The notes: generated by a model not told the origin, from the sequence alone. A stretch of 30,675 nucleotides of DNA from a virus (IMGVR_UViG_2721755724_000001), one strand, 5' to 3'. Counted from the stretch's first letter, positions 1,316 through 19,806 are shown. Program-made: numbers and translations.

Positions 1316-1334
1316 TAGTTAGTGTGGCTTTTAG

Positions 1335-1586: not shown

Positions 1587-1658
1587 CGATTTCTTTATCT
1601 CTTACATCAGACGAGCGCCGGTTGCAGAATACCAGTCACAACCGGCGACAGTTGAACA

Positions 1659-4130
1659 TTAAGAATCAGCCTGACTCGGGATCAGTTTTTGCCAGATAAC
1701 TGAAACGTATTTTGCCTGGTAACGGGCGTCATCAAGTGCATTATGGCGCTCACCTTCGAATGGAATAGCCGTTCTGGCATCGAAGTCTATGGCTTTCCCC
1801 AGCTCAACGATTGTGCGTACATCGCGATCGTTGTAGTAACGCCACGGGCAGGGGATCCCCTGCCGTTCGTATGAACGGCGCAAAATCGTGTTGTCGAAGT
1901 TGGCTCCATTTCCCCAAACCTGAACAAAAAATTCACCGGAGTTTTCGTCGATAAATTCCCGCAATTGTAACAGTGCATCATCTAACGGGATTTCATCGGT
2001 CATAATGGCAGATTGCGCTTCGCGTGATTGCTTAAGCCACCATTTAATGGTGTTCCGATCAATGACTCCGCCAGCAGTTTCCAGATCGATAGTCTTACTA
2101 AATTCCGGTCCCATATCTCCGGTTTGCGGATCGAAAAATATTGCACCTATTGAGATGATCGGGGCATCAGGATTTTTTCCCATGGTTTCAAGGTCGATCA
2201 TTAGATGGTCACACGTCCTGCTGGTGGATGTGATTTCGTGATGACCGTTCACCTTAATTGAGTGATCTGCCGTCTCGCCAGTTTCATTATCGCTATTGTG
2301 ATGCTGATTGCCGCCAGTGTTCTCCTTGTGTGGATGTTCAGCGCCTTCCATTTCCTCCGGATCATCTTCCTGAACTTCAACCTGATATTCTTCATCGAAT
2401 GTTTCTTGATATGTTGCGTCGCCCATCACCGCGCCACAATCAGGGCAGTTGCCGCCGCCGGTCTGACCGCAGGCGGTGCAGACTTTTTCCACTTCCTGTT
2501 GCGCCACTGGTTCAGGCTGTTTCGTTTCTGGCTCGTTTTGTAACGCATTTGTGCTGTTTTGTTCCGCTTTTTGGTAGTTCCGTTCCGATTCATGCTGGTT
2601 CTGGTTCACAGAATCGCGGGTCTGGATCCCCTTAACCCATTTCGGATCATTCGGGTCACTAATCCCTTCAACAAATTCACCACGTGATGCAGCAAGCAAC
2701 TTATCGGCGTCAGGCTGGCTGATATTGGCTGCCTGCATAATTTTGTTTACTTCGTCAGCGGTAACTTTTATCGGCTCTGGTTGTTCTGAATCTTCAGCGG
2801 TATCTACATTTTGCGGTAAGCCCGTGTATGTGCCATTTTTTCGGGCAAAATATTCTTCTTTTGTGATTTCAGTGGCGCCAGCAGCCAGTGCCTTATCCAG
2901 ACCAGAAAGTTTGTTTGCGCGACCGTATTTTTCTCCGTCCTTATCTGCGAAGAGGAAATAGAACGGCCCCTCACGCTCTACAGATGGTTCAGCTTCCGGC
3001 GCGGTTTCATTTTTTGGGATATCAGATACCTCAGTTTCCACTGCATCAGTTTGTGTTTCTGATGACTGGAGAACATCAACAGTGCCCAGGTCTGTTTCTT
3101 CATTCTCAAACACGCCCTTTGTCGTCAGGTATTCGCAGATATATTTGTTCAGTGCTATGGGATCTTTGTGAATGTCGATCGGACGCTCACGGACAAGGCC
3201 AAAAATAGTCTGGCGGTCGTAGCGAAGGGCATCAGGCTGTTTGCGCATTGATGCCGAGATACGCTTCCAGTCTTCGCGGTCGTTGTCGATAACTTCTTTT
3301 TTTGCCCAGCGATGGATGCTGCCGTCAATGTTTCCGGCATCCACATCACCAGGCCAGAGAGCGTAGGCCAGTTCGTCATCCAGTGTTTTCCATGTCTGCT
3401 TGTATTCGCGATGAATGGCAGCAATGACCGGGCTGATTTTTCCTGTTGAATTTTCAGTGTACTGTTGATTGGCTCTGGCGCGGGCGAGATCAACAACAGA
3501 CGTGTATTTTCCGGTTTCCTTGCGTTCACCTTCGCGACGTTTTTTCCAGATGCGCATCTCTGCCTGAATTTCGGGCCATTTAGCACCAGGAATACATTTA
3601 TGCTTAACCCACCCAATGGCGTGCAACTTAAGCTCCGGATACATGGCGTTAACTTCTGGCATTTTCATCAACGCTTCAACGATATGTCCGTCGAATGTTG
3701 CCATGTCTTCCTGCAACAATTCCTGTGCGCTAATAACCATATCAACGGTGATGTTTTCACATGTGTCGAACTTAACCATGACAGCGTTCTGTACTTCAGG
3801 GGCCAGCTTGTCAAAAGTGACGTTCATCGGATCGGATTCAGTCTCAACCGGGACAAAAGAAGCAGACTCCTCATCCCAGCGGTTTTCCTGCATATATTCA
3901 GCATCCCATGAATCGAGGGCAGGGCGGGGTATGCCAGGTTTATCCTCGCAGACAATAAATTTATAAGCGCAGTCCTGAGCAGCCGGATAATGTTCCAGGA
4001 ACTGCCAGTGAAATTTTGCTCGAGCACGGCGTTCGTCGCCAGCTTCAATGGCTGTGGCTACAGCCACAGCGCCTTCTTCCCTTGTTGCCAGTTCGTCAGG
4101 AATAGCGGCGCAAATAAAGACTTTACTCAT
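1659..4130 (-). CDS. Large prophage exonuclease of the size usually annotated exodeoxyribonuclease VIII, with a C-terminal DnaQ-like DEDDh 3'-5' exonuclease domain
   Basis: 823-aa ORF; C-terminal about 190 aa carry Exo I (IDLETMG), Exo II (VWGNGANFDNTIL) and Exo III (HNALDDARYQA) motifs; acidic low-complexity middle region with a CxxC..CxxC cluster. Confidence 0.7.
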   Translation of the reverse strand: MSKVFICAAIPDELATREEGAVAVATAIEAGDERRARAKFHWQFLEHYPAAQDCAYKFIVCEDKPGIPRPALDSWDAEYMQENRWDEESASFVPVETESDPMNVTFDKLAPEVQNAVMVKFDTCENITVDMVISAQELLQEDMATFDGHIVEALMKMPEVNAMYPELKLHAIGWVKHKCIPGAKWPEIQAEMRIWKKRREGERKETGKYTSVVDLARARANQQYTENSTGKISPVIAAIHREYKQTWKTLDDELAYALWPGDVDAGNIDGSIHRWAKKEVIDNDREDWKRISASMRKQPDALRYDRQTIFGLVRERPIDIHKDPIALNKYICEYLTTKGVFENEETDLGTVDVLQSSETQTDAVETEVSDIPKNETAPEAEPSVEREGPFYFLFADKDGEKYGRANKLSGLDKALAAGATEITKEEYFARKNGTYTGLPQNVDTAEDSEQPEPIKVTADEVNKIMQAANISQPDADKLLAASRGEFVEGISDPNDPKWVKGIQTRDSVNQNQHESERNYQKAEQNSTNALQNEPETKQPEPVAQQEVEKVCTACGQTGGGNCPDCGAVMGDATYQETFDEEYQVEVQEDDPEEMEGAEHPHKENTGGNQHHNSDNETGETADHSIKVNGHHEITSTSRTCDHLMIDLETMGKNPDAPIISIGAIFFDPQTGDMGPEFSKTIDLETAGGVIDRNTIKWWLKQSREAQSAIMTDEIPLDDALLQLREFIDENSGEFFVQVWGNGANFDNTILRRSYERQGIPCPWRYYNDRDVRTIVELGKAIDFDARTAIPFEGERHNALDDARYQAKYVSVIWQKLIPSQADS

Positions 4131-4223
4131 TTTGTTTTAACCTCATGACAGATTTAAGGATGAACAAATCCCTGCCATTGCTGGCATATAAGAATGAAAC
4201 CGGATATTTATTACGGAACTGTT

Positions 4224-4415
4224 TTAAAGACCTGCCGGGATTTCGATATTATCCTGGTGAATAACTTTATCGACCGGGTAACAGTTACCGGGAATTTTCT
4301 GTTCGGTTGCTGCAGTCATACACTCCTGCATTGTCCTGTGAACACTGACTGCAATATCAACTGGCTCTCCGGAAACAAGAAAAACTGTCAGAACAAGCGC
4401 AAATGCTGAATTCAT
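4224..4415 (-). CDS. ydfD: YdfD-like small lysis protein
   Basis: 63-aa product from the internal Met (MNSAFALVLTVFLVSGEP...), N-terminal hydrophobic segment; start overlaps the dicB stop as ATGA, as in the Qin dicB operon. Confidence 0.6.
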   Translation of the reverse strand: MNSAFALVLTVFLVSGEPVDIAVSVHRTMQECMTAATEQKIPGNCYPVDKVIHQDNIEIPAGL

Positions 4416-4600
4416 TGTGCACATCCTTTTGGCATCAGACGTAAACGAGCCAGCATTGAAACAATGCATATTTTATTTAATAGCTCCCGTTCTTGTTTTC
4501 TCTTGTTAATGGCATCTTCAGTAAATACAGGGTTACTGATAGTGACACCAATTTCAAAACAACCTTCAGACGTATTAACGTTTGGTAATAACGTTTTCAT
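4412..4600 (-). CDS. dicB: Cell division inhibitor DicB
   Basis: 62-aa product MKTLLPNVNTSEGCFEIGVTISNPVFTEDAINKRKQERELLNKICIVSMLARLRLMPKGCAQ matches DicB as I recall it; GAGGA Shine-Dalgarno 7 nt upstream; DicF lies immediately upstream. Confidence 0.8.
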   Translation of the reverse strand: MKTLLPNVNTSEGCFEIGVTISNPVFTEDAINKRKQERELLNKICIVSMLARLRLMPKGCAQ

Positions 4601-4770
4601 TATCGCGTCCTCAACAATGAATTTTGTGATGCAGTGCCTGGTGCCTCCAGGTGACGTTAACCAGTTAACAATTAACGCCGGATACAGAGAATCCACCCAT
4701 AACACTGTTTTTGGTTTTAACTGTTCCGCGTGCGCTTAGCCGCATTCACCGCATCACAAAATTCACTTTA

Positions 4771-4827
4771 AAAACGGCGGCAGAGCAGTCACGGAGTAAA
4801 ACTGATACCGCCAAACGTCACCAGAAA
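4771..4827 (-). ncRNA. dicF: DicF small RNA (ftsZ-targeting) with intrinsic terminator hairpin
   Basis: Minus-strand sequence UUUCUGGUGACGUUUGGCGGUAUCAGUUUUACUCCGUGACUGCUCUGCCGCC followed by GUUUUU matches DicF as recalled; GGCGG...CCGCC stem plus U-run. Confidence 0.85.
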
Positions 4828-4858
4828 ATTGATAACAGAGGGCGTTGCAGCGGGGTTG

Positions 4859-5089
4859 TCACTTAAGCGTATGGTCAACCTGACAACTCGGTGTCCTCAA
4901 CGGGGAAGGAATAACCCCGCCATACTTACCGCCGCGCCATTTCGCGGGTTGCCACAACCGGAAGCGCACGGTCGAATTAAATTTAACGACACCGTACAGT
5001 GAGACGAACTTCGCCGTGCGCTTTCGTGTTGTGTGCCTGCTTTTAACCACGTCAGGCGAGGTGGTATCCTTCTTATTCCGAATAACCAA
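4859..5089 (-). CDS. Small basic protein in the ydfC position of the dicB operon
   Basis: 76-aa ORF directly upstream of DicF on the same strand; only a TTG start is available; Arg/Lys-rich. Identity as YdfC is positional only. Confidence 0.4.
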   Translation of the reverse strand: MVIRNKKDTTSPDVVKSRHTTRKRTAKFVSLYGVVKFNSTVRFRLWQPAKWRGGKYGGVIPSPLRTPSCQVDHTLK

Positions 5090-5102
5090 GAAGGAAATCT
5101 AT

Positions 5103-5303
5103 ATGACTAAAGAAGAATTTGTCTCTTATATTTTTGATAAAACGGTTGAAATGTATGCCGCTACTTACGGGTCCTGTAATCCTCTGAATAAACCAGAGGG
5201 GAAAGATGATTTCGACAAAATTTACCGCTTCTTGGAGGACCGCTATATCAAAAGGTTAGAGGACGCAGGGATCAAATCCCCAGTGAAGTCACCATTGTCC
5301 TGA
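5103..5303 (+). CDS. Hypothetical small protein (66 aa)
   Basis: ATG preceded by AAGGAAA Shine-Dalgarno at good spacing; the opposite strand over this span contains no ATG, so Qin-type ydfA/ydfB are not encoded here. Confidence 0.4.
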   Translation: MTKEEFVSYIFDKTVEMYAATYGSCNPLNKPEGKDDFDKIYRFLEDRYIKRLEDAGIKSPVKSPLS

Positions 5304-5637
5304 GAACTTGCAGGACGTCATGATCGTAACTTCCATCCAAACCGCGACGGCAAATTGCTTCTCGTATTACCGGAAGCAGTTCGCTGGAAATCTCGGTGCA
5401 TATTTCACCTGCTAATACGCCTGGCTCAAGTGAGAATATTGGTGAACTTACGGTCTTGGTCTCGACAGTTTCAGAGTCAGTGCCAACATTATAAAGCTCA
5501 ACGAAAGCGGTCTTGATTTTCCGGGCCAGATCTTTTGCTGGCTCGCTTGCAATATCTTTCCCGATTTCTCGCAGCACAGAATGCAATGTATGAGCTGCTG
5601 TTTTCTGTACATCAGACGGTAAATCTTTAAATTCCAT
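5272..5637 (-). CDS. Hypothetical acidic protein (about 121 aa) in the position a DicA-type repressor would occupy
   Basis: Open frame MEFKDLPSDVQKTAAHTLHSVLREIG...; no recognisable helix-turn-helix by eye; start could also be the upstream ATG at 5649. Confidence 0.45.
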   Translation of the reverse strand: MEFKDLPSDVQKTAAHTLHSVLREIGKDIASEPAKDLARKIKTAFVELYNVGTDSETVETKTVSSPIFSLEPGVLAGEICTEISSELLPVIREAICRRGLDGSYDHDVLQVLRTMVTSLGI

Positions 5638-5849
5638 CGTCAGCCTCATCAGTCAGTGTTTCTGGCTAACCAGCAACGCGCGCCAGATTCGGTTTTAAAC
5701 GTTTTGCTTTTGGTATATGTCATCGCGGTGAACGTACCGTCCTGGTTGGGGAACACGCCACATACAGGAGGCATCTGGCGGCGAGCTTCTGTATGATCCC
5801 AAGGTTTATGACGAATATCGTAAGACGAAGCGGGCGGGGCGGTTGAACA
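5638..5849. promoter_or_regulatory. Divergent intergenic region, probable immunity/early promoter-operator region
   Basis: About 210 bp between divergently oriented genes; contains the palindrome AAACGTTT and the dicC remnant. No operator repeats confidently identified. Confidence 0.3.
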
Positions 5850-5866
5850 ATGAAAATCACTCCTGA
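5732..5866 (+). pseudogene. dicC: 3' remnant of Cro-like repressor gene dicC
   Basis: Frame encodes ...QEASGGELLYDPKVYDEYRKTKRAGRLNNENHS*, matching the C-terminus of DicC as recalled; the frame is closed by a stop at 5729 with no start codon, so only about 44 codons remain. Confidence 0.45.
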
Positions 5867-6371
5867 ACAGGCTCGTGAGGCTCTGGATGCCTGGATATGT
5901 CGACCAGGAATGACACAGGAGCAGGCGACGATATTAATCACTGAAGCATTCTGGGCTTTGAAAGAGCGCCCGAACATCGATGTTCAGCGTGTCACAGATG
6001 AAGGTGGCGCGGTTGATCAGCGAGCGCTTGGCGTTAATCGAGTGAAGATATTCGAACGCTGGAAGGCTATCGACACTAGGGATAAGCGTGAAAAGTTCAC
6101 GGCGCTAGTGCCTGCAATTATGGAGGCTATCCGGATTAATGATTTCAGGTTGTATCGTGAAATTAGTGACGGAAAAAGCATCACGTACATGATCGCCGGG
6201 TTAAACAAAGAATATGGCGATGTGGTGGAGTCCGGACTGCTTTTTGCTGATCCTGCCGTAGTGGATCGTGAAACTGACGAACTTATAGAAAAAGCAATTG
6301 CTTTCAAACTTGCGTATCGACAGCAATACCAACAAAAAGCTGGATGGAATTATGAGCCTTCTTTTTGCTGA
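5850..6371 (+). CDS. Hypothetical phage early protein (173 aa)
   Basis: ATG-initiated ORF downstream of the cro-like remnant and upstream of the replication initiator; family not recognised. Confidence 0.55.
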   Translation: MKITPEQAREALDAWICRPGMTQEQATILITEAFWALKERPNIDVQRVTDEGGAVDQRALGVNRVKIFERWKAIDTRDKREKFTALVPAIMEAIRINDFRLYREISDGKSITYMIAGLNKEYGDVVESGLLFADPAVVDRETDELIEKAIAFKLAYRQQYQQKAGWNYEPSFC

Positions 6372-7317
6372 ACGCCCACTGGTTATAAACACACAGCTTG
6401 CGATGAAGATTGGCTTAAATGAAGCCATTGTGTTGCAGCAGTTGCATTACTGGTTGAGAGATACCAATTCCGGCATGGAATGTGATGGTGTTCGCTGGAT
6501 TTACAACACAACGGAACAATGGCTGGAACAGTTCCCATTCTGGTCAGAGTCAACGTTAAAGCGCGCGTTTGCAAGTCTGAAAACGCTGGGGCTTTTGCGT
6601 TGTGAAAAGCTCAATAAATCAAAGCGCGATATGACCAATTTCTACACGATCAACTATGGGAACGAGCTTTTAGATGGTGGCAAATTGAACGAATCCATCG
6701 GTTCAAAATGCGCCGCTCCATCAGGTCAAAATGACACGATGGAAGAGGTCAAAATGAAACGCTCCATTGGTTCAAAACGACCCAATGTCATCGGGTCAAA
6801 ATGGCCTGATGATCTTACAGAGAATACAACAGAGATTACTACAGAGAATAAAAACACTTTTCGTCCGGAAGCTTCGCAACCGGACCCGCAGACCGCTGAA
6901 CAGGATTTTTTAATCCGGAACCCCGACGCGGTTGTGTTTAGTGCGAAAAAACGCCAGTGGGGTAGCAGGGAGGATTTGGCGTGTGCGCAGTGGATTTGGG
7001 GGCGGATCGTGAACCTTTACGAACAGGCTGCCAGCGACGATGGAGAGATCATGCGACCAAAAGAGCCTAACTGGACAGCCTGGGCCAATGACGTGCGCAC
7101 AATGCGGATGCTGGATGGCAGAAGCCACAGACAAATTTGCGAAATGTTTGGTCGGGTACAGCGAGATCCATTCTGGGTAAAAAACATCATGAGCCCGTCA
7201 AAACTCCGCGAAAAATGGGACGAACTGGTCATCCGCTTGGGACGTTCACCTGTACAGCGTTGTGTGAATCATATTTCTGAACCGGATACAGAAATTCCGC
7301 CTGGTTTCAGGGGATAA
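6352..7317 (+). CDS. Phage replication initiator / replisome organizer (O-like)
   Basis: N-terminal winged-helix-like region (ERPLVINTQLAMKIGLNEAIVLQQLHYWL...), a central linker encoded by an iteron array, and a C-terminal region resembling DnaT/replication protein C-termini; start taken as the ATG at 6352. Confidence 0.65.
   Translation: MSLLFAERPLVINTQLAMKIGLNEAIVLQQLHYWLRDTNSGMECDGVRWIYNTTEQWLEQFPFWSESTLKRAFASLKTLGLLRCEKLNKSKRDMTNFYTINYGNELLDGGKLNESIGSKCAAPSGQNDTMEEVKMKRSIGSKRPNVIGSKWPDDLTENTTEITTENKNTFRPEASQPDPQTAEQDFLIRNPDAVVFSAKKRQWGSREDLACAQWIWGRIVNLYEQAASDDGEIMRPKEPNWTAWANDVRTMRMLDGRSHRQICEMFGRVQRDPFWVKNIMSPSKLREKWDELVIRLGRSPVQRCVNHISEPDTEIPPGFRG
6695..6805 (+). repeat. Five direct iterons (core GGTCAAAATG-like) at 23-24 bp spacing, followed by an A-rich stretch: probable phage origin inside the initiator gene
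   Basis: TCAAAA cores at 6703, 6726, 6749, 6772 and 6796; A/T-rich ACAGAGAATACAACAGAGATTACTACAGAGAATAAAAACAC follows at 6810-6850. Confidence 0.6.
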
Positions 7318-7644: not shown

Positions 7645-8550
7645 CTATATTTCCAGACATCTGTTATCACTTAACCCATTACAAGCCCGCTGCCGCAGAT
7701 ATTCCCGTGGCGAGCGATAACCCAGCGCACTATGCGGATGCCATTCGTTATAATGCTCGAACGCCTCTGCAAGGTTCTTTGCTGCCGTTAACCCGTCTGG
7801 TTTGGGCATGATACTGATGTAGTCACGCTTTATCGTTTTCACGAAGCTCTCTGCTATTCCGTTACTCTCCGGACTCCGCACCGCCGTGTTCTTCGGTTCA
7901 AGTCCCAACATCCGGGCGAACTGGCGTGTTTCATTAGCCCGGTAGCATGAACCATTATCCGTCAGCCACTCCACTGGAGACGACGGAAGATCGTTGCCGA
8001 AGCGGCGTTCCACCGCTCCCAGCATGACGTCCTGTACTGTTTCACTGTTGAAGCCGCCGGTAGTGACCGCCCAGTGCAGTGCCTCACGATCACAGCAGTC
8101 CAGCGCGAACGTGACACGCAGTCTCTCTCCGTTATCACAGCAGAACTCGAACCCGTCAGAGCACCATCGCTGATTGCTTTCTTTCACGGCCACTCTGCCT
8201 GTATGTGCCCGTTTCGATGGCGGTACAGCAGGTTTTCGCTCAAGCAACAGCGCATTCTGGCGCATGATCCGGTAAACACGTTTGGCATTGATCGCAGGCA
8301 TACCATCAAGTTCTGCCTGTCTGCGAAGCAGCGCCCATACCCGACGATAACCATACGTGGGCAGCTCTCCGATAACATGGTGTATACGGAGAAGCACATC
8401 CGTATCATCAGTGTGACGACTGCGGCGGCCATCCATCCAGTCATCGGTTCGTCTGAGAATGACGTGCAACTGCGCACGCGACACCCGGAGACAACGGCTG
8501 ACTAAGCTTACTCCCCATCCCCGGGCAATAAGGGCGCGTGCGCTATCCAC
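7645..8550 (-). CDS. insD: IS2 transposase OrfB (InsD), full length
   Basis: 301-aa ORF ending ...[37 protein letters not shown]; normally expressed as an InsCD frameshift fusion. Confidence 0.9.
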
Positions 8551-8873
8551 TTTTTTGCCCGTCCATATTCAACGGCTTCTTTGAGGAGTTCATTTTCCAT
8601 CGTTTTCTTGCCGAGCAGGCGCTGGAGTTCTTTAATCTGCTTCATGGCGGCAGCAAGTTCAGAGGCAGGAACAACCTGTTCTCCGGCGGCGACAGCAGTA
8701 AGACTTCCTTCCTGGTATTGCTTACGCCAGAGAAATAACTGGCTGGCTGCTACACCATGTTGCCGGGCAACGAGGGAGACCGTCATCCCCGGTTCAAAGC
8801 TCTGCTGAACAATTGCGATCTTTTCCTGTGTGGTACGCCGTCTGCGTTTCTCCGGCCCTAAGACATCAATCAT
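8508..8873 (-). CDS. insC: IS2 transposase OrfA (InsC)
   Basis: 121-aa product [26 protein letters not shown]... matches IS2 InsC. Confidence 0.9.
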
Positions 8874-9273
8874 CTGTTCTCCAATGACTAGTCTAAAAAC
8901 TAGTATTAAGACTATCACTTATTTAAGTGATATTGGTTGTCTGGAGATTCAGGGGGCCAGTCTATTGATCCGGACCTTATCTGGTCACTACCTGATGGAG
9001 AAATACGTCGCTACGACAGTCGTCTAAACATAATCTGTCGCGAGTGCCGGAAGAGCGAAGTTATGCAGCGCATACTGGCATTTTATCAGTGAAATTTTCG
9101 TTATTTATAGACGTAACTAGATTAAAGAGCATTAGTTCAGATGTGAATTGACATTTTCACGGCACAGGATTGAGCTAGCGTGGTTGTCTGCTTTGCGTCA
9201 AAAGCAGATATTACCAGATTTAGACATCTATTCCCGATAGCCCTGCTCTGATGCCACACTCTGTGCTATTTTC

Positions 9274-9735
9274 ATGACCCCAATAAAAATATTTATGACT
9301 ATTGCTGATTTCAAACGGCCTAAATTGGAGCTCCCAAACGGGGCAAACAAACTACTACTGCACTCTTGCTGTGCTCCATGTTCCGGTGAAGTGATGGAGG
9401 CGCTTCAGGCCTCGGGAATCGACTATACCATCTTTTTCTACAACCCGAACATTCATCCTCAGAAAGAGTATTTAATTCGTAAGGATGAGAATATTCGCTT
9501 TGCTGAACAACACGGCGTGCCATTTATTGATGCTGATTACGACACAGACAACTGGTTTGAACGTGCCAAAGGAATGGAATGGGAACCCGAGAGGGGGATC
9601 CGTTGTACCATGTGTTTTGACATGCGTTTTGAGCGGACAGCGCTGTACGCTGCTGAAAATGGTTTCAGTGTGATCAGCAGTTCACTGGGCATTTCACGCT
9701 GGAAAAATATGCAGCAGGTTACCGTCACTGGATAA
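9274..9735 (+). CDS. QueH-family (DUF208, epoxyqueuosine reductase-like) protein, short form
   Basis: 153-aa ORF with the family-typical [12 protein letters not shown] block plus FFYNPNIHP and RCTMCF motifs; ends after ...[13 protein letters not shown], shorter than the canonical enzymes as I recall them. Confidence 0.55.
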
Positions 9736-10877: not shown

Positions 10878-11255
10878 ATGCGTGATATTCAGATGGTTCT
10901 TGAGCGTTGGGGGGCATGGGCGGCTAATAATCATGAAGATGTGACCTGGTCGTCCATTGCCGCCGGTTTTAAGGGATTAATTCCTTCAAAAGTAAGATCT
11001 CGTCCGCAATGCTGTGACGATGACGCGATGATCATTTGTGAATGTATGGCTCGCCTGAAAAAAAACAACAGCGATTTACATGATTTATTGGTGGACTATT
11101 ATGTCGGCGGCATGACTTTTATGGCGCTTGCACGTAAGCATGGGCGATCTGATTGTTGGGTTGGCAGGATGCTCCAGAAAGCTGAGGGCGTAGTGGAGGG
11201 CATGCTGATGGTGTTGGATCTCCGATTGGAGATGGATGCTGATTGTTCGAAATAA
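10878..11255 (+). CDS. Late-gene antiterminator Q (QuuD-type)
   Basis: 126-aa product [33 protein letters not shown]... closely matches the DLP12 QuuD antiterminator as recalled; GGAG Shine-Dalgarno upstream. Confidence 0.85.
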
Positions 11256-11289
11256 TTAAAGGAAAAGTTGCTGTCTGATTTTCATTAGT

Positions 11290-11353: not shown

Positions 11354-11383
11354 AGCCAGCCTCCCCAAAGGCTGGTTTTTTTC
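11354..11383 (+). terminator. Rho-independent terminator (tR'-like)
   Basis: AGCCAGCC-TCCCCAAA-GGCTGG hairpin followed by a 7-T run. Confidence 0.6.
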
Positions 11384-11410
11384 TAATAAGTATCATTTCG
11401 GGTGGGGATT

Positions 11411-11935
11411 TTATTGTTTAACCCATAATAGTTCATTGACATTGAATCCCAACTTTTGAGCGGTACGCACATAGTCTGCTTTTACATTATCTGGAATAGT
11501 TTGGGTCCTTGCCAGAATCCATAGGTATTCTCTGTTCGGACCACTGACAAGAGCATACTTATACTCATCATCCAGTTTGATTACATTATAGCCACCATAG
11601 AAGGGGCCAAAAAACGAAACTTTCAACGCTGCAGTTTTAGTATCTCCAGTAAAGTATGCTTTACCTTCGCTCTCGCTCCATTTGTTTTTCGTTGGATCGT
11701 ATCCACGGTTAAGTACGCGAATCCCTCCGTCGTTCCGTTTTTCATAAGTAGCGCTGACCTGTTCCAGACCACGTTCGAACCAGTTCTCGAGGCGAGCTAT
11801 TTCATACCATTTTCCGAGGTAGCGGTTGGCGTCAAAATTTGTAATCGGCTGCACACCTTTAGGTGGTGTCGGGGCCTTACATGCTATAAGAGTGAAAGAG
11901 AGTGCAATGCCAGTCAACACAGGCCATAACTTCAT
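11411..11935 (-). CDS. blc: Bacterial lipocalin (Blc-family outer-membrane lipoprotein)
   Basis: 174-aa ORF with lipoprotein signal peptide (LIAC lipobox) and strong similarity to E. coli Blc throughout (NFDANRYLGKWYEIARLENWFERGLE..., KVSFFGPFYGGYNVI, YLWILART). Confidence 0.8.
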   Translation of the reverse strand: MKLWPVLTGIALSFTLIACKAPTPPKGVQPITNFDANRYLGKWYEIARLENWFERGLEQVSATYEKRNDGGIRVLNRGYDPTKNKWSESEGKAYFTGDTKTAALKVSFFGPFYGGYNVIKLDDEYKYALVSGPNREYLWILARTQTIPDNVKADYVRTAQKLGFNVNELLWVKQ

Positions 11936-12127
11936 AATAAATCCTGTACTTTTGATAGTTGAGAGTAAGTATGAAAGATAGATGAGTACGACCGATCACT
12001 TAAAGAACTTTCCTACTATATTAGGAATAGTCAATAACAGAAAAATTGTCAGTGATGAAGCCAGAAAGGCAATTTAGTCCGTGCACTACAAAGTTTATGT
12101 GTTAATGAATTAGTCAAGGGGGAGGAA

Positions 12128-13087
12128 ATGATAAAAAAACCTGTGATTGGGATCAGCGGTTGTTTGGGCGGTTCTGCTGTTCGTTTTGATGGTGGTCACA
12201 AAAGAGATGACTTTTTAATGGACAAATTAGTGGAATGGGTAACATTCAGACCAGTATGTCCGGAAATGGCTATAGGGCTGCCAGTTCCGCGTCCTGCTCT
12301 ACGACTTGTGCGCTCGAAGCAAGGAAATATACGGATGTGTTTCAGCCACGACCAGAATGAGGATGTGACAGAGAGAATGACAGAGTTTAGTCGTTCTTAT
12401 ATGGACAAATTAAAGGATGTATCGGGTTTTGTGGTTTGTGCTAAATCTCCCAGCTGTGGCATGGAGCGCGTGCGTGTCTATGATGAAAATGGTAATCGAG
12501 GTCGTAAAGATGGAGTGGGACTATTTACGAGCACTTTGATGGAAAAGTTTTCCTGGCTACCGGTTGAAGAGGATGGGCGATTACATGATCCAGTGCTTCG
12601 TGAGAATTTTATTGAAAGAGTTTTTGCTTTGCATGAGCTCAATCACCTTTACAAGGAGAAATTATCAAGAAGAGAGTTATTAGCTTTTCATAGTCGTTAT
12701 AAGCTTCAGTTGTTGGCGCATAGCCAGGCAGGCTATAAAGATATGGGACCATTTGTGGCTGCAATACACGAGTGGGCGGACCTTGAATCATACTTTGAGG
12801 TGTATCGTGATAATCTGATGGCGATTCTCAGAAAACCAGCATCACGTAAAAATCACACGAATGTGCTGATGCATATACAGGGGTATTTTAGTAATTACTT
12901 AAGTACACGCCAGCGTAAAGAGTTGAGCGAGGTTATACTTAACTATCGCTTTGGCACATTGCCTCTTCTTGCGCCGTTGACTCTGCTGAAGCATTATCTG
13001 GGTGAGTATCCTAATGATTACTTGCTTACACAGAATTACTTCGATCCCTATCCGGAAGAACTGGCTCTAAGACTGATGGTGAATTAA
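12128..13087 (+). CDS. Two-domain DUF523 (TudS-like thionucleobase desulfidase family) / DUF1722 (YbgA-like) protein
   Basis: 319-aa ORF with GGGGGAGG Shine-Dalgarno; N-terminal Cys triad (GISGCLGG, PVCPE, AKSPSCG) typical of DUF523 Fe-S proteins; C-terminal half resembles YbgA. Confidence 0.65.
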   Translation: MIKKPVIGISGCLGGSAVRFDGGHKRDDFLMDKLVEWVTFRPVCPEMAIGLPVPRPALRLVRSKQGNIRMCFSHDQNEDVTERMTEFSRSYMDKLKDVSGFVVCAKSPSCGMERVRVYDENGNRGRKDGVGLFTSTLMEKFSWLPVEEDGRLHDPVLRENFIERVFALHELNHLYKEKLSRRELLAFHSRYKLQLLAHSQAGYKDMGPFVAAIHEWADLESYFEVYRDNLMAILRKPASRKNHTNVLMHIQGYFSNYLSTRQRKELSEVILNYRFGTLPLLAPLTLLKHYLGEYPNDYLLTQNYFDPYPEELALRLMVN

Positions 13088-13385
13088 CTGTATGCGATAT
13101 CATCTGAAAGTGATGAGTTCCTGTATGCAGGATATTTACAATCGTAAAAACTACGCTATGATGCTCATAGTGTCAGTTTTTATAAAAATCCTGTTCACGC
13201 TAAAGAAAACATTGAGATGCAATTTAATGTTGGTAAACATACCAGCCCCAAAAGATTTTATTCAATCTGTTTTTATATGAAGATATTTCAAGTGAATATA
13301 AAGAGCATATAATATTATTATTGCACGCAGGGTGATGCTGCCAACTTACTGATTTAGTGTATGATGGTGTTTTTGAGGTGCTCCA

Positions 13386-13661
13386 GTGGCTTCTGTTTCT
13401 ATCAGCTGTCCCTCCTGTTCAGCTACTGACGGGGTGGTGCGTAACGGCAAAAGCACTGCCGGACATCAGCGCTATCTCTGCTCTCACTGCCGTAAAACAT
13501 GGCAACTGCAGTTCACTTACACCGCTTCTCAACCCGGTACGCACCAGAAAATCATTGATATGGCCATGAATGGCGTTGGATGCCGGGCAACTGCCCGCAT
13601 TATGGGCGTTGGCCTCAACACGATTTTACGTCACTTAAAAAACTCAGGCCGCAGTCGGTAA
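13386..13661 (+). CDS. insA: IS1 InsA
   Basis: 91-aa product [37 protein letters not shown]... matches IS1 InsA. Confidence 0.95.
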
Positions 13662-14084
13662 CCTCGCGCATACAACCGGGCAGCGATGTGATTGTCTGCG
13701 CTGAAATGGACGAACAGTGGGGCTACGTAGGTGCTAAATCACGTCAGCGCTGGCTGTTTTACGCGTATGACAGGATACGGAGGACGGTTGTGGCGCACGT
13801 CTTCGGTGAACGCACTCTGGCCACACTGGAGCGTCTTCTGAGCCTGCTGTCGGCCCTTTGACGTGGTGATATGGATGACGGATGGCTGGCCGCTGTATGA
13901 ATCCCGCCTGAAGGGAAAGCTGCACGTAATCAGCAAGCGATATACGCAGCGAATTGAGCGGCATAACCTGAATCTGAGGCAGCACCTGGCACGGCTGGGA
14001 CGGAAGTCGCTGTCGTTCTCAAAATCGGTGGAGCTGCATGACAAAGTCATCGGGCATTATCTGAACATAAAACACTATCAATAA
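13580..14084 (+). pseudogene. insB: IS1 insB, frameshifted
   Basis: InsB-homologous sequence is split into two frames around 13855-13865 (...LSLLSAL* then [15 protein letters not shown]...), consistent with a 1-bp insertion relative to canonical IS1. Confidence 0.75.
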
Positions 14085-14271
14085 GTTGGAGTCATTACCT
14101 GCACGCAGCTATTATAATATAACAGATTAGTTTAATGATTTGTTTTTTGTGAGTTAAACACATGGTTTTATAGTTGTGATGCAATGAGATTTTCCTTATT
14201 GTTGAACTGGCGAATATTGATTTTCCACCTATACTTACCTGGTGTAACCCCAATGATATCAGGTGGATAAT

Positions 14272-14985
14272 ATGCCATACATATGTTCTATCATTTTGGT
14301 GTTGAACTCGTTTGGTGTCCGAATTGGTAAAGAAGATATTTTGTTTAAAAAAGGAAATGCTGTCCTCATTGAATACAATTTAAAAGATCTTTTTTCGTCA
14401 AATACAGATCATCTAATGATCGTAGATATTGAGGAGAAAACAGTTAATGATTTCTTTAAAAACTACACACTCTCACCTTTTTCTGTAAGAAGGTTTTATC
14501 CGTCATACTTGATAGTAGAATGTGAAGATTTTTCATTGTTAAGGAACTTGGTTGCATGCTTGAATTGTGATAGCAAAACCGTGGATGTAGTTAGAAATCA
14601 AATATCACTTGCATGTCTTGCTGTCTTATCTTCAGAGAAAATAGTGCAAAGTTTTTTGTTCGGAAGTCTTAATAGCTTAGGTTGTAAAGTTAAGGCTATT
14701 ATTCACTCGGATATCTCAGCGTCATGGAGACTTTGTGATATATCTTCAAGATTATATATGAGCGAGAGTTTGTTAAAAAGAAAATTAAAAGACGAAGGAT
14801 TATCGTTTAGTAAATTAATTCTTGAAGAACGAATGATGATGGCGCAAAGATTATTGATCTACAGTAACCATACTGTCGGCAAGGTGGCGGGAATATGCGG
14901 GTATGACAATGCATCATATTTTGTAAGTGTTTTTAGAGGATATTTTGGTGTGCCTCCGCACCAATATTTATCAAGATTTTCTTAG
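14272..14985 (+). CDS. AraC-family transcriptional regulator (AppY/Rns-like)
   Basis: About 237 aa from the ATG at 14272 (AGGTGG Shine-Dalgarno); C-terminal AraC helix-turn-helix (AGICGYDNASYFVSVFRGYFGVPPHQY); visibly AT-rich gene. Confidence 0.8.
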   Translation: MPYICSIILVLNSFGVRIGKEDILFKKGNAVLIEYNLKDLFSSNTDHLMIVDIEEKTVNDFFKNYTLSPFSVRRFYPSYLIVECEDFSLLRNLVACLNCDSKTVDVVRNQISLACLAVLSSEKIVQSFLFGSLNSLGCKVKAIIHSDISASWRLCDISSRLYMSESLLKRKLKDEGLSFSKLILEERMMMAQRLLIYSNHTVGKVAGICGYDNASYFVSVFRGYFGVPPHQYLSRFS

Positions 14986-15052: not shown

Positions 15053-15086
15053 TACGCCAGAATAATTGCTGGCGTTTTTTTTTTTG
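15053..15086 (+). terminator. Rho-independent terminator after the AraC-like gene
   Basis: CGCCAG-AATAATT-GCTGGCG hairpin followed by an 11-T run. Confidence 0.6.
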
Positions 15087-15175: not shown

Positions 15176-15391
15176 ATGAAATCCATGGATAAGTTAACAA
15201 CGGGCATCGCCTACAGCACCTCTGCAGGCAGTGCTGGCTACTGGTTTTTACAGTTGCTCGATAAAGTCACGCCCTCACAGTGGGCGGCAATAGGTGTATT
15301 GGGTAGTCTGGTATTTGGCATGCTGACGTATCTGACAAACCTTTATTTCAAGATTAAAGAAGACAGGCGTAAGGTTGCGAGAAGAGAGTAA
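15176..15391 (+). CDS. Holin, S21-type pinholin
   Basis: 71-aa product [60 protein letters not shown]... closely matches phage 21 S; dual-start MKSM motif; GGAGGTGAGG Shine-Dalgarno. Confidence 0.85.
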
Positions 15392-15395
15392 TCCA

Positions 15396-15947
15396 ATGAC
15401 TCAAGACTATGAACTGGTTGTGAAAGGAGTTCGCAATTTTGAGAATAAAGTGGCGGTAACTGTAGCCTTACGGGACAAAAAACACTTTGACGGTGAAATT
15501 TTTGACCTGGACATCTCGCTGGACCGTGTTGAAGGTGCCGCGCTGGAGTTTTATGAGGCAGCAGCCAGAAGGAGCATCAGACAGGTCTTCCTGGATGTTG
15601 CTGCCGGGTTATGTGAAGGGGATGAGCAGTCGCCGGAAAAGCGCCCCATAATTTTAGAGGCGCAGAATGTGTGGATAACCTACAAAGGAAAGCTACCGGG
15701 AAGAATTACTGGTTCTCTGAAGACGCCACCGACGGCATTGCGGTCAGAAAAAGATGATATTGAATCGCCCATTGAAAAACTGGAGGGCAGCGTCGCTGAT
15801 CTGAATAAAAAATTGTCGGTGCTGATTCCTTCTGAAGATGAAAAAAAACGCCGCGATGAGCAGTTTGCGGCGTTTTACGATTATTGCATTGAAGTTACTC
15901 GCAGGAATTTTGTGAAGATTTTTGAGGAGGGTAAATCTCTTCAGTAA
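15396..15947 (+). CDS. Hypothetical acidic protein (183 aa) between holin and endolysin
   Basis: ATG 5 nt after the holin stop; no transmembrane segment or lysozyme motifs evident; family not recognised. Confidence 0.5.
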   Translation: MTQDYELVVKGVRNFENKVAVTVALRDKKHFDGEIFDLDISLDRVEGAALEFYEAAARRSIRQVFLDVAAGLCEGDEQSPEKRPIILEAQNVWITYKGKLPGRITGSLKTPPTALRSEKDDIESPIEKLEGSVADLNKKLSVLIPSEDEKKRRDEQFAAFYDYCIEVTRRNFVKIFEEGKSLQ

Positions 15948-16155
15948 GCTTATTGGCGGACGCTGCAATTAATTCAGGAAGGTCCGCAAGGTCATCTGTC
16001 AGTGGATATGATGAAAAATCGGCGGCAGTTCTGTTAAGAAGCGCTTTAACTAATTCCTTTTCCTTCTCCGGCAACAAGTTGATTAGAGCTACGACTGCTT
16101 GCCTGAGTGCGATTAAATCAGCAAAAGTTTGTTTAGGTAGATTTGTGTAATCCAT
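15895..16155 (-). CDS. Hypothetical small acidic protein (86 aa), convergent with the preceding ORF
   Basis: ATG-initiated ORF with a weak Shine-Dalgarno; 3' end overlaps the 183-aa ORF by 53 bp; could be spurious. Confidence 0.3.
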   Translation of the reverse strand: MDYTNLPKQTFADLIALRQAVVALINLLPEKEKELVKALLNRTAADFSSYPLTDDLADLPELIAASANKLTEEIYPPQKSSQNSCE

Positions 16156-16268
16156 AGTCGCCTCTGTGTTTATCAGATTGACATCCTCCTCCCGCCAGTG
16201 CCCATCACTGGTGAGGTAAGATTTAACATATCCGGGGATTTGAAGCCGATAAATCCTGATAAATATCC

Positions 16269-17296
<1,028 letters not shown>

Positions 17297-17659
17297 ATTA
17301 ATATTAAATCGGATTATTTTTAGCGCTGAATGTGAAATTTAAATAAAAAGGACTCTTCCATGAGTCAAAATCCTTGAAATCTTAAGGGTAAGATAAAAGG
17401 TCATTAGACAGAATGACACGTTTTATTAATAAATAAAGCTATTGTTTCATTCGTGTGTTTTTCTTTACAAAAGTAATCCTTGCTATGGTTGGTTAATCAT
17501 GCGTTAATGGTGTTCTGGTTTGTTACAAAATTATCTGAAGCAGTCATTGTTATAATTTTATTATTTGTACCTCTTGAGATTTCCTTGTTGGTTTTTCTCT
17601 CTGATATTTTTTTTCGGACCATTCTGCCCAAGGGCTAACTTCTTCAAAAGGTAATAATG

Positions 17660-17872
17660 ATGTCTAACACAATGACTGGTTTAGTGAAATGGTTTAACCC
17701 TGAAAAAGGTTTTGGTTTCATCACGCCGAAAGATGGTAGCAAAGATGTGTTTGTCCATTTCTCAGCTATTCAGAGCAACGATTTCAAAACGTTAACTGAG
17801 AATCAGGAAGTCGAATTTGGTATTGAGAACGGACCTAAAGGCCCCGCGGCTGTTCATGTTGTGGCACTTTGA
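17660..17872 (+). CDS. cspI: Cold-shock protein, CspA family (CspI-like)
   Basis: 70-aa product [70 protein letters not shown]; preceded by a long AT-rich leader of about 350 bp. Confidence 0.85.
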
Positions 17873-18071
17873 GGTAGAAAATATTACAAACCATATTCAC
17901 TTTAGATGCCCGTGTTGCCATGGTTCTCAGTATAGAACATCATCTTTTGATGTTTCTGACAGGAATCCTTTCGGGGCAAAATGTATCTTTTGTAAATCAA
18001 TGATGATTACATTTGATAATATTTCACAATACTTAAATGTTAGCCGTCTATCGTTAGATTTAAGAAAGTGA
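17856..18071 (+). CDS. Small Cys-rich protein in the ynfN position (possible zinc ribbon)
   Basis: Frame encoding ...[41 protein letters not shown]...; start uncertain; position after cspI matches Qin gene order. Confidence 0.4.
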
Positions 18072-18257: not shown

Positions 18258-19124
18258 CTAAGCGAGGTTCTTGTTTTCAAATTGTTCCGGACTGAGGCCG
18301 CCACACCAACTGTGCCGCCGCCACCGATTGTAATCACATTCGATATAATTAAACACCGTTGCCCGCATTATTTCCCGGCTGATAAAGTGTTCTCCATGGA
18401 TACATTCCACTTTCAGCGAATGAAAGAAGCTTTCCACGCAGGCATTATCGTAGCAGCAACCTTTTGCGCTCATACTTCCACGCAGATTATGCCGCTTCAG
18501 TTGCGCCTGATAATCTGCTGAACAGTACTGGCCTCCACGGTCCGTGTGAACGATAACGTTCCGGGGCCTCTTACGCCGCCACAGCGCCATCTGCAGGGCA
18601 TCGCAGGCCAGTTGCGCCGTCATGCGTGGCGACATTGACCAGCCAATAACGGCACGTGACCACAGGTCAATGACCACTGCCAGATACAGCCAGCCTTCAT
18701 CTGTACGTAAGTACGTGATGTCTCCTGCCCACTTCTGGTTCGGGCCACTGGCGTAAAAATCCTGCTCCAACAGATTTTCTGACACAGGCAGGCCGTGTGC
18801 GCGGTAGCTGACCGGGCTGAACTTCCGGGAGGCCTTTGCCCTCAGTCCCTGACGGCGCAGGCTTGCCGCCACGGTTTTTACGTTAAAGGGGTAACCCTGA
18901 GCACGCAGTTCATCCGTCAGGCGTGGGGCACCGTAACGCTGTTTTGACCGGGTAAAAGCCGCGAGGACAACGCTGTCGCAGTGTTGGCGGAACTGCTGAC
19001 GCGTGCTTATCCTTGTCCGCCGCTGACACCACGTATACCAGCCGCTGCGGGCCACCCGGAGCACGCGGCACATTGCTTTGATGCTGAACTCAGCCTGATG
19101 TTTTTCAATAAAGACATACTTCAT
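18258..19124 (-). CDS. insF: IS3 transposase OrfB (InsF)
   Basis: 288-aa ORF matching IS3 InsF (DDE catalytic region); normally expressed as an OrfAB frameshift fusion. Confidence 0.9.
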
Positions 19125-19420
19125 TTCAGGCGCTTCGCGAAGTATGTCGCGGCCTTTTGGAGGATAGCCAGCTCTTCATCCCGTTCTGCCAGCTGGCGTT
19201 TGAGACGTGCAATCTCGGTAGACATCTCCAGTTCACGTTCAGAAGACGTCTGCTGATTTTGCTGTTTACTGCGCCAGTTGTAGAGTTGTGATTCATACAG
19301 GCTGAGTTCACGGGCTGCGGCAGTAACACCGATGCGTTCAGCAAGCTTCAGGGCTTCACTGCGAAATTCAGGCGAATGCTGTTTACGGGGTTTTTTACTG
19401 GTTGATACTGTTTTTGTCAT
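19121..19420 (-). CDS. insE: IS3 transposase OrfA (InsE)
   Basis: 99-aa product [31 protein letters not shown]... matches IS3 InsE. Confidence 0.9.
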
Positions 19421-19806
19421 GTGAGTCACCTCTGACTGAGAGTTTACTCACTTAGCCGCGTGTCCACTATTGCTGGGTAAGATCAAATATCCAAATGGCG
19501 AAACAACACACCTCACTGTAATGGCTGCAGGGTTTCCATCTCTGACCGGAGATCATAAAGTCATTTATGTAGCAGCGGATCGACATGTAACTTCAGAAGA
19601 AATTCTGGAAGCAGCAATGAGACTCTTGAATTGATTTGATTCTAATGCATTGATAATAAATGATAATCATCTTTATCTGTTTGTGTGAAATTTAGACCGT
19701 CGTATGTTGATTATTGCGATGTTTCATCTTATCTTTTATACGTTTGCTCCATATAATTGACACTACTGTGTACCAGGAAAGTCATAACAGACTAAAAGAG
19801 GAAATG

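What the first reader, a model, noticed from the sequence alone, without database searches (positions are those of the whole stretch)
12128..13087. TudS-like (DUF523) plus YbgA-like (DUF1722) fusion protein as prophage cargo
The N-terminal half has the three-cysteine pattern of DUF523 proteins, a family that includes thiouracil desulfidases, fused to a DUF1722 domain of unknown role. Together with the QueH-family ORF, the prophage carries two predicted Fe-S enzymes linked to modified nucleobases, hinting at a role in nucleotide or tRNA modification salvage or in counter-defence.
Basis: inference. Interest (0 to 1): 0.55.

Follow-up and report, generated by a model that had tools for sequence, protein, structure and literature searches.

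The report
Prophage-borne RudS tRNA 4-thiouridine desulfidase
The ORF is an intact copy of RudS, a recently characterised iron-sulfur enzyme that strips the light-sensitive sulfur from 4-thiouridine in tRNA, carried as cargo in a decayed lambda-like prophage of E. coli; a 92%-identical phage copy has already been tested, so this is a correct but ordinary call.

Summary

This architecture was named RudS in 2024 (PMC11417400): a tRNA 4-thiouridine (s4U) desulfidase in which DUF1722 binds the tRNA. The window protein is 92% identical to RudS_vir of Escherichia phage 1H12. That protein lowered tRNA s4U when overexpressed in E. coli. It gave only delayed growth on 4-thiouracil and none on 2-thiouracil.

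The gene sits in a fixed cassette: Q antiterminator, terminator, Blc lipocalin (-), rudS (+), AraC-type regulator, lysis genes. The cassette occurs in 1153 of 5426 complete E. coli genomes. The lipocalin-rudS pair mirrors a chromosomal arrangement in other Enterobacteriaceae.

The companion QueH ORF is a C-terminally truncated pseudogene. No counter-defence evidence was found. The enzyme is already known. Its role for the phage or lysogen is untested; tolerance of near-UV light is the best guess.

The parts
12128..13087 (+). rudS coding sequence (319 aa): tRNA 4-thiouridine desulfidase, a TudS domain fused to DUF1722
   Evidence: ORF; Pfam domains; 92% identity to the tested RudS_vir of phage 1H12; AlphaFold pLDDT 96.1
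12146..12574 (+). Catalytic TudS/2-thiouracil desulfurase domain (aa 7-149). Predicted [4Fe-4S] ligands are C12, C44 and C110; catalytic residues are E46, R55, S107 and S109
12701..13054 (+). DUF1722 domain (aa 192-309), all-helical; the tRNA-binding module according to PMC11417400
   Evidence: Pfam E=9.4e-40; helices in the model; no specific solved relative; function taken from the paper
12116..12125 (+). Purine-rich Shine-Dalgarno-like stretch (AAGGGGGAGG) just before the ATG
   Evidence: Read from the sequence
13145..13182 (+). Hairpin with an A-run before and a U-run after, 58 nt past the rudS stop codon; a terminator-like end of the rudS unit
   Evidence: Free energy -16 kcal/mol, z=-6.6; conserved in 1H12, IdasGreatGrand and LR-28 with a G-U to A-U change
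11411..11935 (-). Blc-type outer-membrane lipocalin, transcribed divergently from rudS; the constant partner of rudS in the cassette
   Evidence: Pfam Lipocalin_2; NCBIfam Blc 312.6 bits against a cut-off of 267; found together with rudS in all listed rows with at least 49% query coverage (29 of 30) and in every cassette examined in detail; a homologue of 68-80% identity lies upstream of chromosomal rudS in other Enterobacteriaceae
10878..11255 (+). Q-family late-gene antiterminator immediately upstream of the cassette
   Evidence: Pfam Phage_antitermQ E=8e-51; RefSeq annotation of identical loci
11354..11385 (+). Strong intrinsic terminator about 100 nt after Q. By position it is the tR'-type terminator of the short late-promoter transcript that Q overrides (inferred)
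   Evidence: Nine-pair stem followed by a T-run; free energy -14.9, z=-4.3; stem conserved (T-run differs by one T in 1H12) in four phage or prophage copies
13331..14098 (.). IS1 inserted between rudS and the AraC-type gene, flanked by a 9-bp target duplication TGCACGCAG. It separates rudS from the downstream late genes
   Evidence: Sequence; InsA/InsB ORFs; absent from the otherwise identical loci in ECCWS199 and strain 127
14272..14985 (+). AraC-family regulator (YdeO/GadX-like), the third cargo gene of the cassette
   Evidence: Pfam HTH_18/HTH_AraC; NCBIfam best match YdeO, below its cut-off; same position in every cassette examined
15054..15085 (+). Second intrinsic terminator, just before the holin gene
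15176..17296 (+). Lysis genes (holin, DUF1327, lysozyme, Rz-like) that close the cargo slot
   Evidence: Pfam; annotation
9295..9735 (+). Truncated QueH (epoxyqueuosine reductase) pseudogene; not a working partner of rudS here
   Evidence: Pfam positions 1-126 of 175; full-length prophage QueH is 221 aa; annotated as a pseudogene missing its C-terminus; homology breaks at about 9724

Best explanation
The ORF encodes RudS, a monomeric [4Fe-4S] enzyme that removes the sulfur from 4-thiouridine (s4U, mainly position 8) in tRNA and so converts it back to uridine.

Mechanism, taken from the TudS structures and RudS mutagenesis. Cys12, Cys44 and Cys110 hold three irons of the cluster. The fourth iron binds the thiocarbonyl sulfur of the flipped-out s4U. 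Glu46, positioned by Arg55, Ser107 and Ser109, activates water for attack at C4. The helical DUF1722 half grips the anticodon arm, which makes tRNA rather than the free base the substrate.

Genetic setting. The gene is cargo of a lambdoid (Qin-type, now defective) prophage. It lies in the slot between the Q antiterminator with its terminator and the lysis genes, on the late-gene strand. It was captured together with a divergent Blc lipocalin gene from an enterobacterial chromosome.

Inferred role. s4U8 is the near-UV chromophore that cross-links tRNA and causes growth delay with a ppGpp burst. Erasing it should let a lysogen, or a phage induced by sunlight, keep translating under near-UV. The enzyme identity rests on shown evidence. 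Expression timing and the benefit to phage or host are inferred.
For: - Domains and residues.
- Identity to a tested enzyme: 92% over all 319 residues to phage 1H12 gp66, which is RudS_vir. In PMC11417400 all tested RudS proteins, RudS_vir included, lowered tRNA s4U in E. coli. Stand-alone TudS and YbgA did not. RudS from Pseudomonas putida KT2440 (RudS_KT) bound tRNA and desulfurised it in vitro, and it reduced UVA-induced growth delay. Cys, Glu, Ser and Arg mutants were inactive.
- Conservation: only one conserved family position differs in the phage lineage (S142 where 96% have P). dN/dS among phage alleles is 0.10-0.33.
- Cassette order: the same in Qin-, DLP12- and lambda-type prophages and in free phages.
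- Chromosomal counterpart: a lipocalin of 68-80% identity lies divergent and upstream of chromosomal rudS in 34 of 80 enterobacterial loci. It is directly adjacent in Kluyvera. In Enterobacter a MerR/MlrA-type regulator lies between the two genes. Elsewhere a cyclopropane-fatty-acid-synthase operon lies between them. This fits the light-stress context described.
Against: - No activity was measured for this allele.
- RudS_vir had the weakest tRNA desulfidation of the tested set despite good protein levels, and the shortest lag on 4-thiouracil. The phage lineage may therefore be less tRNA-specific.
- No convincing sigma-70 promoter was found in the 193-bp region upstream of rudS.
- The light-responsive MerR regulator of the chromosomal loci is absent from the phage cassette.
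- In this window the prophage is heavily decayed (IS1, two IS2 copies, an IS3-family element, deleted structural genes), so Q-driven expression may never occur.
- The benefit of erasing s4U is itself ambiguous. In Salmonella, s4U protects against near-UV killing.
Confidence: 0.85

Rival explanations
1. The enzyme mainly desulfurises free thionucleobases or thionucleotides (4-thiouracil, 4-thio-UMP), as stand-alone TudS does. It would serve salvage or detoxification rather than tRNA de-modification.
For: The catalytic domain and all TudS active-site residues are present. RudS_vir allowed a uracil auxotroph to grow on 4-thiouracil with the shortest lag of the RudS proteins tested, and it was the weakest on tRNA.
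Against: No RudS supported growth the way TudS does, and none grew on 2-thiouracil. RudS_vir still lowered tRNA s4U, whereas stand-alone TudS did not. The DUF1722 half is under purifying selection and its conserved positions are retained. A free-base enzyme would not need that domain.
Confidence: 0.07
2. It is a phage counter-defence or takeover factor. Stripping s4U would alter host tRNA so as to escape a tRNA-directed defence, or would trigger degradosome decay of selected host tRNAs to reshape translation during lytic growth.
For: The gene lies on the late-gene strand between Q and the lysis genes. Loss of s4U lowers tRNA-Tyr and tRNA-Ser levels in Vibrio cholerae. A roughly two-fold drop was seen in E. 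coli overexpressing RudS_KT.
Against: RudS and its neighbours have no hits in PADLOC. s4U8 lies outside the anticodon loop that known tRNA-cleaving defences target (established knowledge). The closest relatives are chromosomal housekeeping or stress genes in light-stress loci, not defence islands. The window carries no phage tRNA genes that could replace host tRNAs.
Confidence: 0.04
3. In this genome it is a silent passenger. The enzyme is functional in principle but is not expressed from this defective prophage. It persists only because it was acquired recently and travels with the Q-lysis module.
For: No clear promoter lies upstream. A strong terminator lies between Q and the cassette. The prophage is riddled with IS elements and deletions. 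Other strains have rudS interrupted by IS1 or IS3, or truncated, including E. coli B.
Against: The ORF is intact, and dN/dS is 0.10-0.33 across alleles. The gene is retained in about 21% of complete E. coli genomes, mostly full length (1046 of 1153). It has its own conserved terminator-like hairpin.
Confidence: 0.2

Closest known systems
RudS_vir, gp66 (H3V29_gp66) of Escherichia phage 1H12 (NC_049947), tested in Jamontas et al. 2024, PMC11417400
   Same: 319 aa, 92% identical with no gaps. The Cys12/Cys44/Cys110 numbering is the same. The cassette is the same: Q, lipocalin (-), rudS, regulator, holin.
   Different: There are 26 substitutions, none at catalytic or family-invariant positions. 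1H12 is an intact phage, whereas the window is a decayed Qin-type prophage with IS1 inserted just downstream of rudS.
Chromosomal RudS enzymes: RudS_KT (Pseudomonas putida PP_0741), RudS_ST/ORF319 (Salmonella STM1389), and enterobacterial RudS of Citrobacter, Enterobacter and Kluyvera
   Same: The domain fusion, cluster ligands and catalytic residues are the same. Enterobacterial copies are 58-76% identical to the window protein, and diverse family representatives 35-56%. Many Enterobacteriaceae also have the divergent lipocalin neighbour.
   Different: Chromosomal copies sit with a MerR/LitR-type light regulator, a photolyase, or a cyclopropane-fatty-acid-synthase operon. The phage copy has none of these and lies behind a Q antiterminator.
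TudS, stand-alone [4Fe-4S] thiouracil/4-thio-UMP desulfidase (PDB 6z92, 6z96)
   Different: TudS has no DUF1722 domain. It acts on free bases or nucleotides and does not lower tRNA s4U in vivo.
E. coli YbgA (b0707), stand-alone DUF1722
   Same: It is homologous to the C-terminal half (NCBIfam PRK10167, 189 bits).
   Different: The score is below the equivalog cut-off of 237. YbgA has no catalytic domain and no effect on s4U. The RefSeq name 'YbgA family protein' for the window gene therefore undersells it.

Membership tests
RudS (tRNA 4-thiouridine desulfidase) | N-terminal TudS/DUF523 domain fused to a C-terminal DUF1722 domain in one polypeptide | tested here: met
   PF04463 over aa 7-149 and PF08349 over aa 192-309, each at about E=1e-39. 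The two-domain model has pLDDT 96.
RudS (tRNA 4-thiouridine desulfidase) | Three conserved cysteines that ligate a [4Fe-4S] cluster with one free iron | tested here: met
   C12, C44 and C110 align to TudS C10, C43 and C104. They are kept in 138-140 of 141 homologues. Presence of the cluster itself was not measured.
RudS (tRNA 4-thiouridine desulfidase) | Catalytic Glu, two Ser and Arg (RudS_KT E51, S111, S113, R60) | tested here: met
   E46, S107, S109 and R55 are present and at least 95% conserved.
RudS (tRNA 4-thiouridine desulfidase) | Lowers s4U in tRNA, in vivo or in vitro | not testable with these tools
   Shown for the 92%-identical RudS_vir by overexpression in E. coli (PMC11417400). 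Not measured for this allele.
RudS (tRNA 4-thiouridine desulfidase) | DUF1722-mediated binding of tRNA | not testable with these tools
   Gel-shift, docking and mutagenesis data exist for RudS_KT only. Conserved DUF1722 positions such as H188, K192, H249 and G252 are retained here.
TudS (stand-alone thiouracil desulfidase) | Single-domain protein of about 150 aa that rescues a uracil auxotroph on 2- and 4-thiouracil | tested here: not met
   The protein is 319 aa with a second domain. RudS proteins do not rescue growth on 2-thiouracil and rescue it only after a lag on 4-thiouracil. It works like TudS chemically but is not a member of the stand-alone group.
YbgA (NCBIfam PRK10167 equivalog) | Score above the curated cut-off; stand-alone DUF1722 protein of 169 aa | tested here: not met
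   189.1 bits against a cut-off of 237.
   Only Pfam positions 1-126 of 175 are present. The full-length prophage homologue is 221 aa. The locus is annotated as a pseudogene.
Lambdoid 'moron' (autonomous cargo unit) | Own promoter and own terminator within the late region | tested here: inconclusive
   A conserved terminator-like hairpin follows the gene, but no convincing sigma-70 promoter was found upstream.
Anti-phage defence or counter-defence systems | Match to a known defence-system protein model | tested here: not met
   PADLOC gives no hits for RudS, the lipocalin, the AraC-type protein or the QueH remnant.

The most novel reading that the evidence does not exclude
The phage-borne RudS, together with its Blc lipocalin partner, is a lysogenic-conversion or late-gene module for sunlight. 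Transcribed from the Q-antiterminated late promoter, and perhaps at a low level in the lysogen, it erases the s4U8 photosensor of host tRNA. [quoted passage not shown] If so, near-UV physiology would differ between the roughly one fifth of E. coli strains that carry the cassette and the laboratory strains on which the classical 'growth delay' work was done.
Probability: 0.3. Interest if true: 0.5.

Novelty: already known. Interest (0 to 1): 0.25.

Why it matters
There is little new on the enzyme side. The family was defined in 2024, and a near-identical phage copy was among the proteins tested. Two modest points follow from this work.

First, reviews and the original paper state that E. coli lacks RudS. 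That holds for the E. coli B strain examined, which retains only a 49-codon stump. Yet 1153 of 5426 complete E. coli genomes carry a prophage copy, mostly intact. s4U levels and near-UV responses may therefore vary between strains.

Second, databases still label the gene poorly. RefSeq calls it 'YbgA family protein', and PHROG 3275 lists it as 'unknown function'. Why a temperate phage keeps a tRNA 'eraser' in the slot that holds Shiga toxin genes in other lambdoid phages is open and easy to test.

Tried and rejected
- Lipocalin versus DUF3833. I tested whether the phage lipocalin is homologous to the DUF3833 protein or the 175-aa protein that precede chromosomal rudS in Citrobacter. BLASTP found no similarity (Pfam). 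The link between the phage and chromosomal loci rests on true Blc-type lipocalins found elsewhere.
- Counter-defence. PADLOC gave no hits. PHROGs only returned 'unknown function' families.
- RNA elements near the gene. Rfam at gathering thresholds found only DicF and a cspA-type thermoregulator elsewhere in the window. There are no tRNA genes.
- Promoter for rudS. The consensus scan found nothing on the + strand between 11936 and 12127. Reading the sequence by eye gave only weak candidates. Alignment with Kluyvera intergenic regions showed short conserved blocks that fit a blc promoter better than a rudS one.
- Exact late promoter (pR') after Q. Only a weak candidate at 11227-11256 was found, so its position is left as inference.
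- Literature on this cassette. Searches for prophage, lipocalin and DUF1722 found nothing beyond the RudS paper and a Salmonella orf319 pseudogene listing.
- Technical dead ends. A locus search failed because the alignment was too diverse. Both were rerun with adjusted alignments.

Full report
**The observation**

An ORF runs from 12128 to 13087 on the + strand. It has an ATG start, encodes 319 aa, and is preceded by a purine-rich ribosome-binding stretch. Pfam finds two domains. PF04463 ('2-thiouracil desulfurase', the former DUF523) covers residues 7-149 at E=5.8e-40. PF08349 (DUF1722) covers residues 192-309 at E=9.4e-40. NCBIfam matches the YbgA model only over the C-terminal half, at 189 bits against a cut-off of 237.

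The only solved relative by sequence is TudS (6z92). The alignment pairs C12 with TudS C10, C44-P-E46 with C43-P-E45, and S107-P-S109-C110 with S101-P-S103-C104. I aligned 141 homologues, most of them 35-56% identical representatives from an exhaustive HMMER search. In that alignment C12 is kept in 140 sequences, C44 in 139 and C110 in 138. E46 is kept in 140, R55 in 140, S107 in 140 and S109 in 134. The two other cysteines, C71 and C104, are not conserved.

**What it is**

This fusion was characterised in 2024 as RudS, a tRNA 4-thiouridine desulfidase (Jamontas et al., PMC11417400). One of the six RudS proteins tested there, RudS_vir, is gp66 of Escherichia phage 1H12. The paper lists its cluster cysteines as Cys12, Cys44 and Cys110. 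I fetched that locus. The window protein is 92% identical to it over all 319 residues, without gaps.

The paper reports the following.
- All RudS proteins lowered tRNA s4U 4.7- to 26-fold when overexpressed in E. coli. Stand-alone TudS and YbgA did not.
- None of the RudS proteins grew a uracil auxotroph on 2-thiouracil.
- RudS_vir gave the shortest lag on 4-thiouracil, but the weakest tRNA activity for its protein level.
- RudS_KT from Pseudomonas putida bound tRNA, desulfurised it in vitro and reduced UVA-induced growth delay.
- Mutating the Glu, the two Ser or the Arg abolished activity. Residues in DUF1722 that model near the anticodon also reduced activity.

Every one of those catalytic residues is present in the window protein. 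Only one position conserved across the family differs in the phage lineage: S142, where 96% of homologues have proline. Among phage and prophage alleles dN/dS is 0.10-0.33, so the gene is under purifying selection.

**Surroundings**

The window is a decayed Qin-type lambdoid prophage of E. coli. It carries integrase, excisionase, an exonuclease, DicF RNA, immunity and replication genes, DUF968, Q, lysis genes, a cspI-type thermoregulator, terminase and tail remnants, and Pin invertase. Several insertion sequences interrupt it.

The local order is as follows.
- Q antiterminator, 10878-11255.
- A strong, conserved intrinsic terminator, 11354-11385.
- A Blc-type lipocalin on the minus strand, 11411-11935.
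- rudS.
- A conserved hairpin with an A-run before and a U-run after, 13145-13182.
- An IS1 with a 9-bp target duplication, 13331-14098.
- A YdeO/GadX-like AraC regulator.
- A second terminator, then holin, lysozyme and Rz.

Apart from the IS1, the same order is found in Qin-, DLP12- and lambda-type prophages at different chromosomal sites, and in free phages 1H12, Lambda_2E9 and IdasGreatGrand. By megablast the lipocalin-rudS segment occurs in 1153 of 5426 complete E. coli genomes, full length in 1046 of them. It also occurs in 12 phage records. By position the terminator after Q is the tR'-type terminator of the short late transcript. This reading follows established lambdoid biology and was not tested here. 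On that reading Q-modified polymerase would pass antisense through blc and sense through rudS towards the lysis genes. I found no convincing separate promoter for rudS.

**Origin of the cassette**

The nearest non-phage relatives are chromosomal RudS proteins of Citrobacter, Klebsiella, Enterobacter, Serratia and related genera, at 58-76% identity. I examined 80 enterobacterial loci. In 34 of them a lipocalin 68-80% identical to the phage one lies upstream of rudS on the opposite strand. Three arrangements occur.
- The lipocalin is directly adjacent to rudS in Kluyvera, as in the phage.
- A MerR/MlrA-type regulator lies between the two genes in Enterobacter.
- An operon of a SnoaL-like protein, a short-chain dehydrogenase, an amine oxidase, DUF1365, cyclopropane-fatty-acid synthase, DUF2878 and DUF3833 lies between them in Klebsiella, Pseudescherichia, Kosakonia and Buttiauxella.

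The phage pair therefore looks like a condensed copy of a chromosomal stress locus that lost its MerR regulator. The AraC gene was never found at the chromosomal loci. This fits the paper's observation that RudS genes sit in light-responsive operons.

**The QueH claim**

ORF 9274-9735 does match QueH, but only Pfam positions 1-126 of 175. Homology to other prophage QueH genes stops at about 9724. A full-length prophage QueH is 221 aa. RefSeq annotates the identical locus in strain 127 as a pseudogene missing its C-terminus. In this window there is one intact Fe-S enzyme of this kind, not two.

**Mechanism and role**

Shown or strongly supported: the protein is a RudS with an intact active site, and its near-identical phage orthologue erases s4U from E. 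coli tRNA.

Inferred: the cluster chemistry follows TudS, with a free iron binding the thiocarbonyl sulfur and water activated by Glu. DUF1722 confers tRNA specificity. Expression is at least partly Q-dependent. The benefit is relief from s4U8-C13 cross-linking under near-UV light, for the lysogen or for phage development after UV induction.

Rivals considered:
- Free thiouracil or 4-thio-UMP salvage is weakly supported by RudS_vir's growth on 4-thiouracil. The DUF1722 requirement and the tRNA data contradict it as the main role.
- Counter-defence has no support. PADLOC gives no hits, and s4U8 lies outside anticodon loops.
- A silent passenger in this decayed prophage is plausible for this particular strain. 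IS elements are present, no promoter was found, and other strains have rudS broken by IS1 or IS3.

**Novelty**

The enzyme and its phage occurrence are already published, so I rate this as already known, with low interest. Two small additions come from this work. First, the statement that 'E. coli lacks RudS' does not hold across the species. E. coli B carries the same cassette with rudS cut to 49 codons by an IS3-associated deletion. Second, the lipocalin-rudS pairing is shared between phages and enterobacterial chromosomes. Why a temperate phage keeps this gene remains an open question that is easy to test.

Noticed in passing
window 9274-9735 (+): The QueH (epoxyqueuosine reductase) ORF is truncated at a recombination joint near 9724. 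Full-length QueH of 221 aa is common cargo in related E. coli prophages, between the replication genes and hokD/DUF968 (L011 3646-4311).
   Followed up: yes
window 13331-14098: An IS1 with a 9-bp target duplication (TGCACGCAG) lies between rudS and the AraC-type gene. It is absent from otherwise identical loci in strains ECCWS199 and 127. It should be polar on any late transcript heading for the lysis genes.
   Followed up: partly
window 14272-14985 (+): An AT-rich (about 34% GC) AraC-family regulator whose best match is YdeO/GadX. It is always the third cargo gene of the cassette and is present in at least 924 of 5426 E. coli genomes. It may belong to the prophage PatE/PsrA/PsrB group that controls acid resistance and type III secretion in EHEC (PMC10877973), but I did not compare sequences.
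   Followed up: partly
window 11411-11935 (-) and the intergenic region 11936-12127: The Blc-type lipocalin is divergent from rudS. A short block conserved with Kluyvera chromosomal loci resembles a sigma-S type -10 element on the minus strand (CTACACTTAA in Kluyvera, CATACTTAC here). This would fit stationary-phase expression of blc, but it is inference only.
   Followed up: partly
L096 (E. coli B-ZidR, NZ_CP117469.1) 3873-4019: The E. coli B lineage has the same Q-lipocalin-rudS cassette, but rudS is cut after 147 nt next to an IS3 and a deletion that reaches the tail genes. A strain descended from E. coli B thus retains only a stump of RudS.
   Followed up: yes
window 12551-12553 (codon 142 of rudS): The phage-lineage RudS has Ser at position 142, where 96% of 139 diverse homologues have Pro, just before the conserved LPVEE(E/D)GRL motif. 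It is the only departure from family-conserved positions, and it might relate to the lower tRNA activity reported for RudS_vir.
   Followed up: no
L005-L007 (Citrobacter braakii) 110-6960; also L014-L020 and others: In many Enterobacteriaceae, chromosomal rudS is the last gene of an operon of a SnoaL-like protein, a short-chain dehydrogenase, an amine oxidase, DUF1365, cyclopropane-fatty-acid synthase, DUF2878, an unknown protein and DUF3833. One database protein (P0006, 500 aa) even fuses RudS with DUF3833.
   Followed up: partly
L008-L010 (Salmonella enterica) around 6001-6960: A 73%-identical RudS sits in a prophage remnant (integrase fragment, DUF1367) next to ttcA, the tRNA 2-thiocytidine synthesis gene. 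This is the attachment region used by Rac in E. coli. The closeness of two tRNA-thiolation-related genes is probably coincidental.
   Followed up: no
window 7645-8918 (-), 27568-28757 (+) and 18258-19429 (-): There are two copies of an IS2-type element (identical transposase N-termini) and one IS3-family element. Together with IS1 they show that this prophage is heavily degraded. The two IS2 copies could mediate rearrangements.
   Followed up: no
window 4775-4826 (-) and 17502-17899 (+): Rfam finds DicF sRNA and a cspA-type thermoregulator (cspI leader). Both are typical of Qin-type prophages.
   Followed up: no
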